Shown: piece by piece, positions 22,230-34,522 of the stretch
Layout: each line of letters opens with the position of its first letter
How positions within the stretch are numbered: the stretch's first letter is position 1
Assembly: GCA_964016885.1 (NCBI GenBank)
Contig: CAXHJY010001768.1
Location: forward strand, 127,881 to 191,880
Length of the DNA stretch: 64,000 bases
DNA from: Eledone cirrhosa
Lineage: Eukaryota
Direction: 5' to 3'
Notes under the pieces: model-generated
The model's database searches: none
Seen by the model: the letters and a program-made list of their open reading frames with translations, nothing else
Told to the model about the DNA's origin: nothing
Position numbers and translations under genes: made by a program

Positions 22230-25891
<3,662 letters not shown>

Positions 25892-27018: not shown

Positions 27019-28407
27019 CTGATCCAACCATGATAATTCTGACTTTATTTCAGGCAGTTCTATTCACAACTAGGTTTTCCGATATCTTTTGGGGGTTTTA
27101 AGATGGAAGAATAAGTATGTAGAGGATGATATTGCTGCTATTTCTAGTAAATTAAGAGACCACGTAGAGGCTCTTTTGTTGGCTTGTGGTGAGGTTAGTG
27201 AAATGATGGTGGTGGTGGAAAAGGGTATATAAATGTATATGTGACTAGTGGTGGTAGTGGTGGGGTGGATGGATGTAAGAAGAAGGGGTTGAGGTGGTGA
27301 AGGGCTAGATATACAGTATATGTGGTGGTGAAGGGGGTAGATATAGAATTAAGTGTATGTGGTGGTGGTGGTGAAGGGGGTAGATATAGAATTGTGTGTA
27401 TGTGATGGTGGTGGAAATGGGGGTAGATATAGAATTGTGTGTATGTGATGGTGGTGGTGGTGGTAATGGGGGTAGATATAGAATTGTGTGTATGTGGTGG
27501 TGGGGTGTATGTGTATGTGTGTGGTGGGAGTGTTAATGAAGTAGTGGTGAAAGGGAAGGATACATATATACTTGTGTGTGTGTGAGAGCATGCATATAAG
27601 CATGCCTGTGTGTATGTGTAAGTGTGTGCGTGTGTGCATGCATGCGTGCCAGCTTGTGTGTATGTGTGTGTGCATCTGTGTGATGGTATAGGGGGTTAGA
27701 TATGTGTGTATATGTGGTAGTGGTGGTGGCGGTGGTGGTGGTGCAATAATAATGGGGCTAGATATAAGTGTGTATATGTATGTGGTGTGACAGTGTGGTG
27801 GTGGTGGTGTTGAAGGGAAGATGTGTGTGTGGTGGTGGGGAAGAAGGATATGCCAGCTAAGCATTCTTCCCTATCTACTGAGGCTGACTGCTAAAGCAAC
27901 ACAAACATAGAATTTGTCTGAGAGATAACAGTAGTGACAGGGGAGGGAAAGATGTGTATGTGTGTGTATCTGTGTGTGTGGGAGACAGAGAGACAGTATT
28001 TGTATATGTATGTGTGCATGCATGTGTGTGCATGAGTATGAGTGCATTTGTGCATGTGTGCATTTGTGTGCACACTCACATATTCAGAGAGAAAGTGAGT
28101 TTCTAAATGTTACTTAAGGTAGTAAGAACACAAAAGAGTGTGGTAGAAAGATGATGGAATTATAGTTAAATAGGTAGATAGACAGGTAGATAGAGAGATA
28201 GAGCAGTAGATAGACAGGTAAATAGAAAGGTAGATAGAGCAGTTGGTATATAGGTAAATAGAGAGGTAGATAAAGCAGCTGGTATATAGGTAAATAGAAA
28301 TGTAGATAGAGCTGCAGATAGAAGGTAAATAGAAAGGTAGAGAGATAAAAAGGCAAATAGAACGGTAGGTAGAAAGATAGATAGAACGGTAGGTAGAAAG
28401 ATAGATA

Positions 28408-29499
28408 AATTTTTTTATTAGCCACAAGGGCACAAAAGAAGGGGACAAATACAAATGGGGAGTTTACATACAGGTATATGAAAATAAAACTATTAATACA
28501 ATAACAAATAACAATTGAAATCCCCAATAGGGGGGAGGTGTTACACAGGGGTTGTACACACCCCGTAAAAATGTACAACTCTCATCTCCAGGAGCACCAA
28601 GAGTGAGTACTCCCTTCCTCAATTCCTCTTTTTCCTCAACCTACAGGCTTATATAGAGAGAAGGCCCAACCACTCAGGCCATCTTTGCCACACTCACCCA
28701 CCTTTTATAAAATTTGCTGCTGTACAGCACCTCTCTCTCCATCCTGATTCTTCTTCCAAAGTGGTATTTGAAAAAAAGAATCAGTTGTTGGCCGGAGAGA
28801 AAGGTGTCTGACATCAACCCTTTTAACCTCGTCCACCATATAACTTCTTTCACCATAGCCATAACACATAGGAAAACCGCCTCTCCCTCGTTTTTGAAGG
28901 AGGGTGGCAGTTTGATCATGACAATGGACTCGGTGGTCAACTGGATTGGTCCCACGTGCGACAATAGTCGTTCTACATAGCCCCACAGGTCGGTAGAGCT
29001 CCTCGGTAGCACTGCCAGGCCAGGGACTTTTGGAAGTTGTCCATTAGTCCTGGGCGGAAGGTCCTATAAAAACAGACTGGCCAGTTCGTCCTCCTCTACG
29101 CCTAGAGTTTCTCCGAGCGTGTCGTCGCTCTTGCTGCGGACCAACCCTCTATAGAATGTCGAAGTGGAGTCTCCACTGATCACCGGGTCCGTTTGCCAGA
29201 GGACTGTGAGCGCCTGAGCACATTCAATGTGCCAGTCGCCCATTTTCCTCGGTCTTTGCTTGACCCAGGACTGCAGCTCGGTCAGCGAGACGAATCGTGG
29301 GAAGGCTCGCCTCACGAACGGGGCCCACACCGGTTGTCTGGTGAGGAATACGTGGAGGTGCCGCAGCCTGAGCGTGTGTTTGCGCATCGTCAGCCACGGC
29401 ATCCCCAGCCCTCCGTTTGAAGGGTGTTGGCAGCAGATGGATCTTCTCACCAAAGGAGCCCGTTTCTTCCAAAGGAATTGGAAGAGCGCGCGCTCCACC
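28408..29499 (-). mobile_element. Tx1/L1-clade LINE 3' fragment, copy A (5'-truncated, internal deletion)
   Basis: ERALFQFLWK...GGLGMP typical of L1/Tx1 ORF2 downstream of RT; AATAAA at 3' end; 13-bp TSD AGAAAGATAGATA (28395-28407, 29500-29512). Confidence 0.88.
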
Positions 29500-31144
29500 A
29501 GAAAGATAGATAGAACGGTAGATAGTAAGATAGAGAGAATGGTAGGTAGTAAGATAGAGAGAATGGTAGGTAGTAAGATAGAGAGAATGGTAGGTAGTAA
29601 GATAGATAGAACGGTAGGTAGTAAGATAGAGAGAACGGTAGGTAGTAAGATAGAGAGAATGGTAGATAGTAATATAGAGAGAATGGTAGGTAGTAAGATA
29701 GAGAGAATGGTAGGTAGTAAGATAGAGAGAATGGTAGGTAGTAAGATAGATAGAACGGTAGGTAGTAAGATAGAGAGAATGGTAGGTAGTAAGATAGAGA
29801 GAATGGTAGGTAGTAAGATAGATAGAACGGTAGGTAGTAAGATAGAGAGAATGGTAGGTAGTAAGATAGAGAGAATGGTAGGTAGTAAGATAGATAGAAC
29901 GGTAGGTAGTAAGATAGAGAGAATGGTAGGTAGTAAGATAGAGAGAATGGTAGGTAGTAAGATAGAGAGAATGGTAGGTAGTAAGATAGAGAGAATGGTA
30001 GGTAGTAAGATAGAGAGAATGGTAGGTAGTAAGATAGAGAGAATGGTAGGTAGTAAGATAGAGAGAATGGTAGGTAGTAAGATAGAGAGAATGGTAGATA
30101 GTAAGATAGAGAGAATGGTAGGTAGTAAGATAGAGAGAATGGTAGGTAGTAAGATAGAGAGAATGGTAGGTAGTAAGATAGAGAGAATGGTAGGTAGTAA
30201 GATAGAGAGAATGGTAGGTAGTAAGATAGAGAGAATGGTAGGTAGTAAGATAGATAGAACGGTAGGTAGAGAGATAGAGAGAATGGTAGGTAGTAAGATA
30301 GAGAGAACGGTAGGTAGTAAGATAGAGAGAACGGTAGGTAGTAAGATAGAGAGAATGGTAGGTAGTAAGATAGAGAGAATGGTAGGTAGTAAGATAGAGA
30401 GAATGGTAGGTAGTAAGATAGAGAGAATGGTAGGTAGTAAGATAGAGAGAATGGTAGGTAGTAAGATAGAGAGAATGGTAGGTAGTAAGATAGAGAGAAT
30501 GGTAGGTAGTAAGATAGAGAGAACGGTAGGTAGTAAGATAGAGAGAATGGTAGGTAGTAAGATAGAGAGAATGGTAGGTAGTAAGATAGAGAGAATGGTA
30601 GGTAGTAAGATAGAGAGAATGGTAGGTAGTAAGATAGAGAGAATGGTAGGTAGTAAGATAGATAGAACGGTAGGTAGTAAGATAGAGAGAATGGTAGGTA
30701 GTAAGATAGATAGAACGGTAGGTAGTAAGATAGAGAGAATGGTAGGTAGTAAGATAGATAGAACGGTAGGTAGTAAGATAGAGAGAATGGTAGGTAGTAA
30801 GATAGAGAGAATGGTAGGTAGTAAGATAGAGAGAATGGTAGGTAGTAAGATAGAGAGAATGGTAGGTAGTAAGATAGAGAGAATGGTAGGTAGTAAGATA
30901 GAGAGAATGGTAGGTAGTAAGATAGAGAGAATGGTAGGTAGTAAGATAGAGAGAACGGTAGGTAGTAAGATAGAGAGAATGGTAGGTAGTAAGATAGAGA
31001 GAACGGTAGGTAGTAAGATAGAGAGAATGGTAGGTAGTAAGATAGATAGAATGGTAGGTAGTAAGATAGAGAGAACGGTAGGTAGTAAGATAGAGAGAAT
31101 GGTAGGTAGTAAGATAGAGAGAATGGTAGGTAGTAAGATAGATA

Positions 31145-32316
31145 AGTTTCTTTTATTTGCCACTAGGGCATCAAAAGTGGGACAAGTACAAAGGGGGGAG
31201 TTTACACAAAAAGGCGTCCTCAATAAGGAGGAGGCAATAACAAAATATAAAAATAAAATAAGATATAACAAAAAATAAAATTTTTAACAAAATCCTCAAT
31301 AGAGAGGAGGCGCCTTGGGGGGTCGCACACACCCCCGAAAAAAGTGTGCAACCCTTTTCCTCAGGAGCACAGAGAGGGGGTGCTCCCTCGTTCCTTCCTC
31401 TTTTCCACCTACAGGCTTATGTAAAGAGAAGGCCCATTCACACGGGCCATTCTCGCCACTTTCACCCACCTTTCATAAAAACGACTGGGGTGCAGCACCT
31501 CTCTCTCCATCCTGATCCTTCTTCCGAAATGATATCGGAAGAAACGGACCAGTTGTTGGCCAGAGAGAAAGGTGCCTGACCTCAGTCCTTTCAGACGCGT
31601 CCACCATACAACCTCTTTCGCCATGGCTATTACGCACAGAAACACCGCCTCTGCTTCATCTTTGAAGGGGGGAGGCGGCTTGATCATTACAATAGACTCG
31701 GTGGTCAACCGGATCGGTCCCACCCCTGACAGCAGTTGTTCGACATAGCCCCACAGATCGGCTACGCCCGAGCAGTGTACCAATGCGTGTGCAACGGTTT
31801 CCTCGTCGCACACGCATCTGGGACAGATCTTTTTGGCGGGGTCCCTACCCGGGCGCCCGTGTCTGTAGAGCCTTTCTCGAACGGGTAAAGCCCCTCGGTA
31901 GCACTGCCAGGCTAGGGACTTCTGGAAGTTGTCCATAGGTCCCGGGCTGAATGTCCTACCGAACAGGCTGGCCAGTTCGTCCTCCTCCATGTCTAGGGCT
32001 TCTCCGAGGGCGTCGTCGCACCTGCTGCGTACCAGCCCTCTATAGAATGTTGCGGTGGAGTCTCCACTGATAACCGGATCCGCCTGCCAGAGGACGGTGA
32101 GCGCCTGGGCACACTCAGTGTGCCAGGCGCCCAGTTTTCTCGGTCTTTGCTTGACCCAGGATTGCAGCTCGGTGAGTGAGACGAGTCTGGGAAAGGTTCG
32201 TCTCACAAACGAGGCCCACACCGGTTGTCCGGTGAGGAATACGTAGAGGTGCCGTAGCCTTAATGCGTGTTTACGCATCATTAGCCACGGCATCCCCAGC
32301 CCTCCTTTCGAAGGGT
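31145..32316 (-). mobile_element. Tx1/L1-clade LINE 3' fragment, copy B
   Basis: Uninterrupted ORF2 C-terminus: GGLGMP, LAWQCYRGALP, CPRC-x8-H-x4-C zinc knuckle, stop at 31409; AATAAA; 12-bp TSD GTAAGATAGATA (31133-31144, 32317-32328). Confidence 0.92.
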
Positions 32317-34522
32317 GTAAGATAGATAGAACGGTAGATAGTAAGATAGAGAGAATGGTAGGTAGTAAGATAGATAGAACGGTAGGTAGTAAGATAGAGA
32401 GAATGGTAGGTAGTAAGATAGAGAGAATGGTAGGTAGTAAGATAGAGAGAATGGTAGGTAGTAAGATAGATAGAACGGTAGATAGTAAGATAGAGAGAAT
32501 GGTAGATAGTAAGATAGAGAGAATGGTAGGTAGTAAGATAGATAGAACGGTAGGTAGTAAGATAGAGAGAATGGTAGGTAGTAAGATAGAGAGAATGGTA
32601 GGTAGTAAGATAGAGAGAATGGTAGGTAGTAAGATAGAGAGAATGGTAGGTAGTAAGATAGAGAGAATGGTAGGTAGTAAGATAGTGAGAATGGTAGGTA
32701 GTAAGATAGAGAGAACGGTAGGTAGTAAGATAGAGAGAACGGTAGGTAGTAAGATAGAGAGAATGGTAGGTAGTAAGATAGTGAGAATGGTAGGTAGTAA
32801 GATAGAGAGAATGGTAGGTAGTAAGATAGAGAGAATGGTAGGTAGTAAGATAGAGAGAATGGTAGGTAGTAAGATAGAGAGAATGGTAGGTAGTAAGATA
32901 GAGAGAATGGTAGGTAGTAAGATAGAGAGAACGGTAGGTAGTAAGATAGAGAGAACGGTAGATAGTAAGATAGAGAGAATGGTAGGTAGTAAGATAGAGA
33001 GAACGGTAGGTAGTAAGATAGAGAGAACGGTAGGTAGTAAGATAGAGAGAATGGTAGGTAGTAAGATAGAGAGAATGGTAGGTAGTAAGATAGAGAGAAC
33101 GGTAGGTAGTAAGATAGAGAGAACGGTAGATAGTAAGATAGAGAGAATGGTAGGTAGTAAGATAGAGAGAACGGTAGGTAGTAAGATAGAGAGAATGGTA
33201 GGTAGTAAGATAGAGAGAATGGTAGGTAGTAAGATAGAGAGAATGGTAGGTAGTAAGATAGAGAGAACGGTAGGTAGTAAGATAGAGAGAACGGTAGATA
33301 GTAAGATAGTGAGAATGGTAGGTAGAAAGATAGATAGAACGGTAGGTAGAGAGATAGATAGAACGGTAGGTAGTAAGATAGATAGAACGGTAGGTAGAGA
33401 GATAGATAGAACAGCAGATAGTAAGATAGATAGAATGGTAGGTAGAGAGATAGATAGAAGAGCAGATAGAAAGATAGATAGAACGGTAGGTAGAAAGATA
33501 GATAGAACGGCAGATAGAAAGATAGATAGAAGGCTAGAAAAGAACAACTAGAAGAAATGTCATGTAGTGGATAGTTCCATCCTCTTCCTATAAATTCTAC
33601 ATTCAAATGTTACTAAAAGCAGCCATTTCCCATACCAGGTGTCTTGAAGAGTAGCTCAACACCTATCTTCCTTGCAGGGGAAGTGTAAGTAGTTTTCTTT
33701 TATCTGGTGAAAACAATTGTATGGTGGACAAGACTGAAAGGGCTGTCCTGGTATGTGTTGTGCAGATCTGATTAAGGGACACCCATTGCTTTCTGTGAAG
33801 GTCAAAGCTGGTGGGTTTAGATGTGGGGTCCTGGATGAGGTGGGCAACTGTGTATAAATAAATAAAGCATACACATATGCATGTATGGTCACATAAACTC
33901 CTGATGGAGTCATAGGGGCACTGTATTGACATTCAGCGTTTCTAGGGCATTTTAAAACTCTCCAGGTCTGAATACAGCAGATTTCTTCCAGAGAAGGATA
34001 GAGTGTGAGAGAAAGCAAATGAGAAAGAGATATAGAGGAAGAGTCGACCCCAGTATTGGATGAAAGGCAAAGTTGACCTCAGCAGGATTTGAACTCAGAG
34101 TAGAGAGCTGAACAAATACTGCAAAGCATTCTATCTGACATTCTAATGACTCTGCCATACACTTATATAAATATATATATATAAATGAATATATATAAAA
34201 TATAAAATAAATGCATACACATTATTATAATTCACTGCAGCTGTATTTGGCTGAAATGATTTATAACATGGCTCATGTTCAAACACTATCAATGTAGAAT
34301 GAAAGAAAGAAGTGATTTGAGAAGGCAAGAAAAGAAATTAAGAAATGCAATATAACACTATTCTATATGTAGATTCCATTCATCAAAATTTAAAAAATAG
34401 GGAAAAAGAAACATTACTACATAGAAATGCTATAAGCATTTGCTCTTCATTCATGAATTTCTATACTGAAAAATTATATTAAACAGTCACCACCTCTCTT
34501 TATCTATCTCTCACGCGCATAT

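What the first reader, a model, noticed from the sequence alone, without database searches (positions are those of the whole stretch)
28395..32328. Two independent Tx1-like retrotransposons inserted at the same phase of a 24-bp satellite: candidate GATA-satellite-specific LINE
Seen: both copies are on the - strand, both 3' ends (AATAAA plus a few nt, no poly-A) join exactly after AAGATAGATA, and both have TSDs ending in that sequence (13 bp AGAAAGATAGATA; 12 bp GTAAGATAGATA) followed by GAACGGTAGATAGT. GATAGATA is the minority variant of the unit (most read GATAGAGA). The copies are clearly diverged, have different 5' truncation points, and A lacks the zinc knuckle, so they are not a simple tandem duplication. 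Established: Tx1-clade families are often target-specific (Kibi in (TC)n, Koshi in (TTC)n, Keno in U2 snRNA genes, Mutsu in 5S rDNA). Inference: a family homing to (GATA)n-type repeats, a specificity I do not recall being described here.
Basis: partly seen in the sequence, partly recalled or inferred. Interest (0 to 1): 0.75.

Follow-up and report, generated by a model that had tools for sequence, protein, structure and literature searches.

The report
Octopus LINE homing to GATA repeats
Both pieces are truncated copies of a very abundant, recently active jumping-gene family, likely of an octopus, that inserts genome-wide at one fixed position of GATA-type repeats; repeat-seeking elements of this kind are known, but I did not find this target described.

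Summary
Observation confirmed: two minus-strand LINE 3' fragments (28408-29499, 31145-32316; 80% alike) with exact 13- and 12-bp target-site duplications. The target is the GATA motif, not the 24-bp satellite, which occurs only at this locus. Genome-wide, 3,758 of 4,007 B-type and 10,192 of 12,109 A-type 3' ends are followed, exactly two bases on, by TATCT or TATAT; background is about 0.2% for TATCT and 3% for both. Duplications that run on into unique DNA, flanks that follow the local sequence and 0 of 98 poly(A) tails show a target, not an element tail. Full-length copies are 5.7-5.8 kb, with a CCHC ORF1 and an APE-RT-zinc-finger ORF2; 8 of 98 have both frames open. The protein is closer to Tx1-annotated proteins than to human L1, but no named Tx1 reference was in the tree. 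Likely mechanism: the endonuclease nicks the GATA strand and primes reverse transcription there; help from read-through RNA pairing is untested. Microsatellite-targeting Tx1 families are known (TC, TTC, TTCC/TTTC); ten literature searches showed no GATA target, and Repbase could not be searched. This scan noted the same family earlier, in this and another genome.

The parts
28172..28407 (+). Degenerate GATA-derived 12/24-bp repeats, left edge of the array
   Evidence: TRF rows 28172-28345, 28206-28400, 28357-28407
28395..28407 (+). TSD at the 3' end of copy A, AGAAAGATAGATA (13 bp)
   Evidence: exact repeat of 29500-29512
28408..29499 (-). Copy A: 5'-truncated LINE, older A-type lineage; C-terminal ORF2 with a frameshift near 29064 and a private 123-bp deletion at 28992/28993 that removes the zinc knuckle; 3' UTR
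   Evidence: 96-97% to its best 39 relatives over the last 353 bp
28414..28419 (-). AATAAA of copy A, 6 nt before the junction; no poly(A)
   Evidence: sequence
29500..29512 (+). TSD at the 5' end of copy A
29503..31142 (+). 24-bp minisatellite, 68.3 copies, consensus AAGATAGAGAGAATGGTAGGTAGT; single-locus, GATA-derived
31133..31144 (+). TSD at the 3' end of copy B, GTAAGATAGATA (12 bp)
   Evidence: exact repeat of 32317-32328
31145..32316 (-). Copy B: 5'-truncated LINE, youngest lineage; last ~300 codons of ORF2 open (stop at 31409-31411) with zf-RVT; 264-bp 3' UTR
   Evidence: zf-RVT E 5e-6; 99.6-99.7% to two full-length copies
31152..31157 (-). AATAAA of copy B, 7 nt before the junction; no poly(A)
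   Evidence: sequence
32317..32328 (+). TSD at the 5' end of copy B (2-nt microhomology with the element)
32317..33531 (+). Continuation of the 24-bp minisatellite, 50.6 copies

Best explanation
A and B are independent, 5'-truncated copies of two lineages of one abundant L1-group (likely Tx1-type) LINE family that inserts on one strand and at one phase directly before TATCT (less often TATAT), likely because its endonuclease nicks the GATA strand at 5'-AGATA^ and primes reverse transcription there. Shown: the junction motif, its fixed phase and strand, duplication of the target, the absence of poly(A), the two-ORF anatomy and the recent burst. From established LINE biology: target-primed reverse transcription from an APE nick, a staggered second nick giving the roughly 8-25 bp TSD, and 5' truncation. 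Inferred: that the endonuclease itself reads the motif, and that the transcript, whose AATAAA lies only 6-7 nt from the element end, probably runs into the flanking UAUC repeats, which could pair with the freed GATA primer and fix the start point. In this window the satellite units that still read GATAGATA were the best targets, hence the shared phase.
For: Whole-genome exact counts: 3,758 of 4,007 B-type ends (93.8%) and 10,192 of 12,109 A-type ends (84.2%) carry TATMT exactly 2 nt after the anchor; reversed-pattern controls 0-3. First 60 B-type hits on contig 1, taken in order: TATCT 49, TATAT 9, TACCT 1, TATTT 1; positions 1, 2 and 5 invariant; 0 of 60 in reverse orientation. First 40 A-type hits: 32 TATCT, 4 TATAT, 4 other, two of which are not this LINE. 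Background per position: TATCT 0.15-0.21%, TATAT 2.6-2.8%, so TATCT is preferred about 70-100-fold per site over TATAT. Target, not tail: 13 of 98 distinct copies have TSDs that are not simple repeat (8-30 bp), with the first five bases identical in both copies in 12 of 13. Several run into unique DNA (L058, L059, L115, L135, L145), and copies in (TA)n have no TATC at the 3' end. In an earlier run of the TSD caller, shuffled pairing gave non-simple TSDs in 0.9% against 12 of 100 observed. 0 of 98 have poly(A). The last 2 nt track lineage (6 changes on the tree against 17 shuffled), so they belong to the element. ORF2 has Exo_endo_phos, RVT_1 and zf-RVT matches, and the catalytic residues align with human L1 ORF2p. 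Precedent: Tx1L endonuclease nicks almost only its own target (PMC1950540, passages); target-like RNA ends may anneal in SART1Bm and R1Bm (PMC7265360, passages).
Against: 28 of 98 copies had no callable TSD, some with long (TATC)n only on the 3' side (e.g. L054, L057, L141, L149, L156). That could mean repeats added from an RNA tail, 5' target deletion, or recombination between copies. 57 of the 70 TSD calls lie in simple repeat, where random pairing already gives a% of the time. Some non-simple TSDs lie in minisatellites or a self-tandem (L052, L111, L112, L134, L144, L152), where upstream units can mimic a TSD. The strict motif is only about 5 bp, so this is a strong preference rather than rDNA-grade specificity. 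No biochemical or RNA data. The predicted EN hairpin loop has the 9-residue length of L1 by alignment, not the 11 of Tx1L (PMC1950540 passage).
Confidence: 0.85

Rival explanations
1. RNA-guided choice: a loosely specific endonuclease nicks AT-rich DNA widely, and only nicks whose 3' end can pair with a read-through (UAUC)n stretch of the transcript prime reverse transcription.
For: AATAAA sits 6-7 nt from the element end, closer than the usual 10-30 nt to a cleavage site (recalled), yet 0 of 98 copies have poly(A). The conserved block is only about 5 bp, the size of a priming duplex. 15 copies have at least 3 TATC units on the right and at most 1 on the left, against 3 the other way. Target-like RNA ends may anneal in SART1Bm and R1Bm (PMC7265360 passages).
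Against: The left-right asymmetry is not significant (Wilcoxon p 0.078), and the left count is biased low in full-length copies. TATAT, TATTT and TACCT targets are used at the same phase, and TATAT use is not tied to one lineage (48 of 363 in CT-ending copies, against about 11% overall). This rival can coexist with endonuclease specificity.
Confidence: 0.3
2. The TATC run is the element's own microsatellite tail, as in CR1/L2/RTE LINEs, and insertion is otherwise random.
For: Nearly every 3' end is followed by TATC; 28 of 98 copies lack a callable TSD.
Against: The same TATC-starting sequence precedes the 5' end and continues into unique DNA as a TSD (L058, L059, L115, L135, L145, window A and B); the 3' flank mirrors the local sequence, including (TA)n and five different minisatellites.
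Confidence: 0.04
3. The family is specific for this 24-bp satellite, or the two copies arose by duplication or conversion within the array.
For: Both copies sit next to the same rare 24-mer (3 of 108 units), more than the 8-bp motif alone predicts (about 24 TATCTATC sites among 155 TATCT sites).
Against: The satellite is single-locus while the family has thousands of copies elsewhere; A and B are 80% alike, each far closer to other copies, with different TSDs and truncations. The rare unit is simply the most GATA-like, and units beside insertions may escape homogenisation.
Confidence: 0.02
4. Insertion is random and copies survive preferentially in microsatellites (retention bias).
For: The genome is very rich in simple repeats.
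Against: Retention cannot give single-base phase and single-strand orientation in 94% of 4,007 ends, including near-identical young copies, nor a 70-100-fold preference for the rarer TATCT over TATAT.
Confidence: 0.01

Closest known systems
Kibi (TC)n and Koshi (TTC)n of teleosts; crocodilian Tx1 families on (TTCC)n/(TTTC)n (PMC4494074 and PMC3812793, passages read)
   Same: APE-type two-ORF non-LTR element inserting specifically into a microsatellite; ORF2 scores 290-311 bits against vertebrate proteins auto-named YTX2/TX1 and 368 against a medaka protein.
   Different: Target is (TATC)n/(GATA)n with tolerance of (TA)n and isolated TATCT; host is probably an octopod; the lineage forms its own long-branch clade with an Argonauta protein, apart from the vertebrate group; only 27-32% identity to those proteins. 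Kibi and Koshi themselves were not available for comparison.
Tx1L of Xenopus laevis (PMC1950540, passages read)
   Same: Sequence-specific APE endonuclease is the accepted basis of targeting; same domain order.
   Different: Tx1L targets one site in the DNA transposon Tx1D; here the target is a ~5-8 bp motif used at more than 10,000 sites; EN hairpin loop 9 residues by alignment against 11.
Other microsatellite-targeting LINEs: Waldo (ACAY), Mino (AC), Dong (TAA), Togen (TG) (PMC3812793, PMC4640811, passages read)
   Same: Use of a simple repeat as a multi-copy landing site.
   Different: Different clades (R1, R4, NeSL-related); none of the passages lists GATA/TATC.
Human LINE-1 ORF2p (PDB 8sxt and relatives)
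   Same: Nearest solved structure by sequence, E 2e-47, 165 bits over residues 8-857; catalytic residues align.
   Different: L1 has a poly(A) tail and a loose TTTT/AA target; this family has no poly(A), a CCHC knuckle in ORF1 and a GATA target.
L1-Tx1 families annotated in Octopus vulgaris (PMC13282606: 13 recently active families, 421 insertions; passages read) and in coleoids generally (PMC8967140, passages read)
   Same: Probably include this family or its relatives (not compared).
   Different: Neither main text contains the word GATA or describes a target; their supplements and libraries were not examined.

Membership tests
APE-type non-LTR retrotransposon, L1 group | ORF2 with N-terminal APE endonuclease, RT and C-terminal zinc-binding region | tested here: met
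   PF03372 23-227, PF00078 512-755, PF13966 976-1032 (the last just under its curated cut-off) in locus L055; best PDB hits are L1 ORF2p
APE-type non-LTR retrotransposon, L1 group | 5' truncation, precise 3' end, TSDs | tested here: met
   10 of 60 unselected copies full length, median 2.6 kb; TSD calls in 70 of 98, 13 of them not simple repeat
Tx1 clade | RT groups with named Tx1 elements (Tx1L, Kibi, Koshi, Keno, Mutsu) to the exclusion of L1 proper | tested here: inconclusive
   290-311 bits to three YTX2/TX1 auto-named proteins against 165 to human L1. The quick tree of 49 rows (careful search unfinished) puts the query in a 100-support clade of 14 rows in an open three-way fork with the vertebrate Tx1-like group; no curated Tx1 or L1-proper row was included
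Tx1 clade | ORF1 with a CCHC zinc knuckle (feature recalled, not from a call) | tested here: met
   CX2CX4HX4C visible in both ORF1 types; zf-CCHC E 0.0035 and 0.049, below the curated cut-off
Target-specific Tx1 families (Kojima criterion, PMC4494074: one sequence type in more than 20% of flanks) | More than 20% of flanks share a target type | tested here: met
   93.8% and 84.2% TATMT at fixed phase; TATCTATC in 32 of 60
Target-specific Tx1 families | Endonuclease cleaves the target in vitro | not testable with these tools
   needs a nicking assay
Kibi/Koshi | (TC)n or (TTC)n target | tested here: not met
   junctions read TATCT/TATAT in 58 of 60
LINEs with a self-encoded microsatellite tail (CR1/L2/RTE type) | Repeat only at the 3' end, independent of the insertion site | tested here: not met
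   the flank follows the local site and is duplicated at the 5' end; the 28 of 98 copies without a TSD call remain unexplained

The most novel reading that the evidence does not exclude
A cephalopod-wide Tx1-type lineage whose landing site is set jointly by its endonuclease and by a read-through (UAUC)n RNA end that pairs with the GATA primer. Each insertion duplicates, and sometimes lengthens, the GATA run, creating new targets and head-to-tail stacks and helping to shape the GATA repeat content of octopus genomes. Intact copies would make a compact, poly(A)-independent insertion system whose target is partly RNA-set.
Probability: 0.25. Interest if true: 0.7.

Novelty: new variant of a known kind. 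Interest (0 to 1): 0.47.

Why it matters
It adds (GATA)n to the list of microsatellite targets of Tx1-type LINEs, and it does so in a mollusc lineage. With at least 14,000 motif-flanked 3' ends and 8 of 98 sampled copies holding both ORFs open, it is a large natural data set and a ready substrate for asking how APE endonucleases and RNA 3' ends divide the work of target choice. In practice, GATA microsatellite markers and repeat assemblies in octopods will often be interrupted by, or flanked by, this family. It is not a new principle.

Tried and rejected
Satellite-specific targeting: rejected, the 24-mer is single-locus. A lineage-specific shift towards (TA)n, suggested by the first listed hits: rejected, 48 of 363 (13%) in CT-ending copies against about 11% overall. 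Tail-driven lengthening of the 3' run: 44 copies right-longer, 26 left-longer, p 0.078, not established. The 40 hits were selected with two TSD bases in the query, so they served for anatomy and, pooled, for the TSD count of 98, but not for flank frequencies. A 3'-end hairpin is drawn by the folding program just before AATAAA in both copies but is no better than shuffles (z -0.18 and -0.51). Expression: no RNA holder listed. The first read-laying did not inform on flanks. Metagenome relatives: 80 loci, 25-33% identical bar one at 42%; the 17 whose 3' ends I inspected showed no GATA junction and are too distant to test conservation. The protein atlas gave no result. The careful tree did not finish. 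Kojima and Fujiwara 2004 and Anzai 2005 were not held; supplements of PMC4494074 could not be read, and its Fig. 3 target labels are not in the text, so a GATA-targeting Tx1 listed there cannot be excluded. No structure was predicted.
Full report
Observation. Copy A (28408-29499) and copy B (31145-32316) are minus-strand 3' fragments of a LINE. Their TSDs are exact: 13 bp (28395-28407, 29500-29512) and 12 bp (31133-31144, 32317-32328). AATAAA lies 6 and 7 nt from the junctions and there is no poly(A). The copies are 80.3% identical (812 of 1,011 columns). B is 99.6-99.7% identical to two full-length copies elsewhere. A is 96-97% identical to its best relatives and has a frameshift and a private 123-bp deletion that removes the zinc knuckle. 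They are independent insertions of two lineages of different age.

The satellite. The 24-mer array (29503-31142 and 32317-33531) is a single-locus minisatellite: all 68 exact matches of a 32-mer lie in this window. Its units match perfect (GATA)n at 16-19 of 24 positions. Both insertions adjoin the unit AAGATAGATAGAACGGTAGATAGT, 3 of 108 counted units and joint best match. About 24 of 155 TATCT sites on the element strand continue as TATCTATC, and both insertions use such a site. That both use the same rare unit is a post hoc observation on two events. It may reflect a weak upstream preference, or protection of edge units from homogenisation.

The family. The window's genome is 3.0 Gb. The nearest named protein is from Argonauta hians (62% over 672 aa), so the host is inferred to be an octopod. 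Exact 3'-end anchors occur 4,007 times (B type) and 12,109 times (A type), with 2 and 3 reversed-pattern controls. All 60 sampled B-type hits align to the element over at least 72 bp. 38 of 40 sampled A-type hits align over at least 64 bp, and 2 are another element. Full-length copies are 5.7-5.8 kb. ORF1 is about 580-640 codons with a CCHC knuckle. ORF2 is about 1,145 aa with APE, RT and zf-RVT matches. 8 of 98 fetched copies have both frames open; that set is enriched for young copies. 10 of 60 unselected copies are full length.

Target preference. TATCT or TATAT follows exactly 2 nt after the anchor in 3,758 of 4,007 B-type ends and 10,192 of 12,109 A-type ends; TATCT alone, within 0-3 nt, in 3,329 of 4,007. 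In the first 60 B-type hits on contig 1, taken in order, the flank begins TATCT 49 times, TATAT 9, TACCT 1 and TATTT 1. TATCTATC follows in 32 and (TATC)3 in 19; none is in reverse orientation. Background per position is 0.15-0.21% for TATCT, 2.6-2.8% for TATAT and 0.005-0.04% for TATCTATC, measured in the window and in DNA upstream of the loci. So the family has a strict core of about 5 bp, prefers C over A at position 4 by 70-100-fold per site, and favours continued repeats.

Target or tail. Among 98 distinct B-type copies (40 best-identity hits plus 60 unselected, 2 duplicates dropped), 70 gave a TSD call, 13 of them not simple repeat (8-30 bp), and 28 gave none; 0 have poly(A). Calls in simple repeat are weak evidence, since shuffled pairing gave 29% any-TSD calls; non-simple calls were 0.9% shuffled against 12 of 100 observed in the earlier run. 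The clearest cases duplicate the motif together with unique DNA (L058 11 bp, L059 9, L115 8, L135 14, L145 18, and both window copies), and the first five bases agree between the two TSD copies in 12 of 13. Copies in (TA)n have no TATC at their 3' end. The motif therefore belongs to the site. The two bases before it track the lineage (6 changes on a 60-copy tree against 17.1 shuffled, minimum 14; the set is dominated by 42 CT copies), so they are the element's last bases. Against a pure target model, some copies have long (TATC)n on the 3' side only. The overall asymmetry is not significant (44 against 26, p 0.078).

Mechanism. Shown: phase, strand, duplication, no poly(A), intact catalytic motifs. 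From established biology: target-primed reverse transcription from an APE nick; Tx1L endonuclease nicks almost only its target (PMC1950540, passages). Inferred: the nick falls on the GATA strand after AGATA, and the second nick about 8-25 nt away. Because AATAAA is so close to the element end, the RNA probably carries a few flanking UAUC units before its poly(A), and reverse transcription would have to start inside it, plausibly by pairing with the primer, as suggested for SART1Bm and R1Bm (PMC7265360, abstract and passages). No RNA run was listed, so this step is untested.

Classification. ORF2 scores 290-311 bits against three vertebrate proteins auto-named YTX2 or TX1 and 165 against human L1. 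A quick tree of 49 rows places it with the Argonauta protein and 12 unnamed proteins (11 of them 40-45% identical) in its own clade, in an unresolved fork with vertebrate Tx1-like and other unnamed groups. No curated Tx1 or L1-proper sequence was in the tree, so Tx1 membership is probable, not proven. It works like Kibi and Koshi but fails their target definition.

Literature. Ten full-text searches (one search was about a residue, not novelty) showed no Tx1 family with a GATA or TATC target. I read passages of PMC4494074, PMC3812793, PMC4640811, PMC13282606, PMC8967140, PMC10294476, PMC3747384, PMC1950540, PMC7265360 (also its abstract) and PMC10830420; the others I saw as listings only. Known targets in those passages are TC, TTC, TTCC/TTTC, ACAY, AC, TAA and TG. 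Kojima and Fujiwara 2004 was not held, figure labels and supplements of PMC4494074 could not be seen, and Repbase and Dfam are not searchable here, so prior description remains possible. Earlier notes of this scan describe the same GATA-targeting family in this genome and in another. They are not independent support; my reading was recorded before I saw them. One note on a partner SINE led me to check the A-type counts.

Verdict. It is a new target variant of a known kind of element, well supported by genome data and open on mechanism. Interest 0.47.

Noticed in passing
L055 and L067 (full-length copies): Two young lineages share an almost identical RT and 3' half but differ in ORF1 and endonuclease (about 88% whole-element identity between L054 and L039), which suggests recombination that swapped 5' halves while the target stayed the same.
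   Followed up: partly
ORF2, RT finger motif, e.g. L055:4298-7732: 74 of 76 readable motifs carry Q where human L1 has K541 (73 read LQI, one is frameshifted; one has K, one a stop) and the five 40-45% relatives in which the motif was read have K; K541 is listed as a primer/template contact in PMC10830420 (one passage). The lineage is evidently mobile with Q.
   Followed up: partly
L101-L160: 19 of 60 unselected copies have another family member directly up- or downstream: head-to-tail stacking in shared GATA runs.
   Followed up: yes
L045, L052, L103, L111/L112, L134, L143, L144, L159/L160: Insertions in several unrelated minisatellites, each at a TATCT- or TATAT-like position of the unit, as in the window.
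   Followed up: partly
L263, L278: 2 of 40 A-type pattern hits share only the last 22-23 nt with this LINE, resemble each other upstream and have non-GATA flanks: probably another element with a related tail; pattern counts therefore slightly overcount the family.
   Followed up: no
coded runs X4, X5, X7 on window 31125-31215: Single assembled contigs under three organism codes join the element 3' end to AGATA or GATA repeats; X7 is near-identical and may be this DNA's source. Weak hint that the junction is shared by related species.
   Followed up: partly
window 23195-25361 (+): A different LINE: RVT_1 (E 7e-29) followed by a PHD finger (E 3e-6) at 23765-24916; the RT-PHD layout recalls Vingi/Ingi-type elements (recalled, untested).
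   Followed up: partly
window 10814-11398 (+): Helix-turn-helix ORF (HTH_32, E 2e-8) that looks like a mariner transposase N-terminus (name recalled).
   Followed up: no
window 50184-50200: An unoccupied short (GATA)n run, a potential target without an insertion.
   Followed up: no
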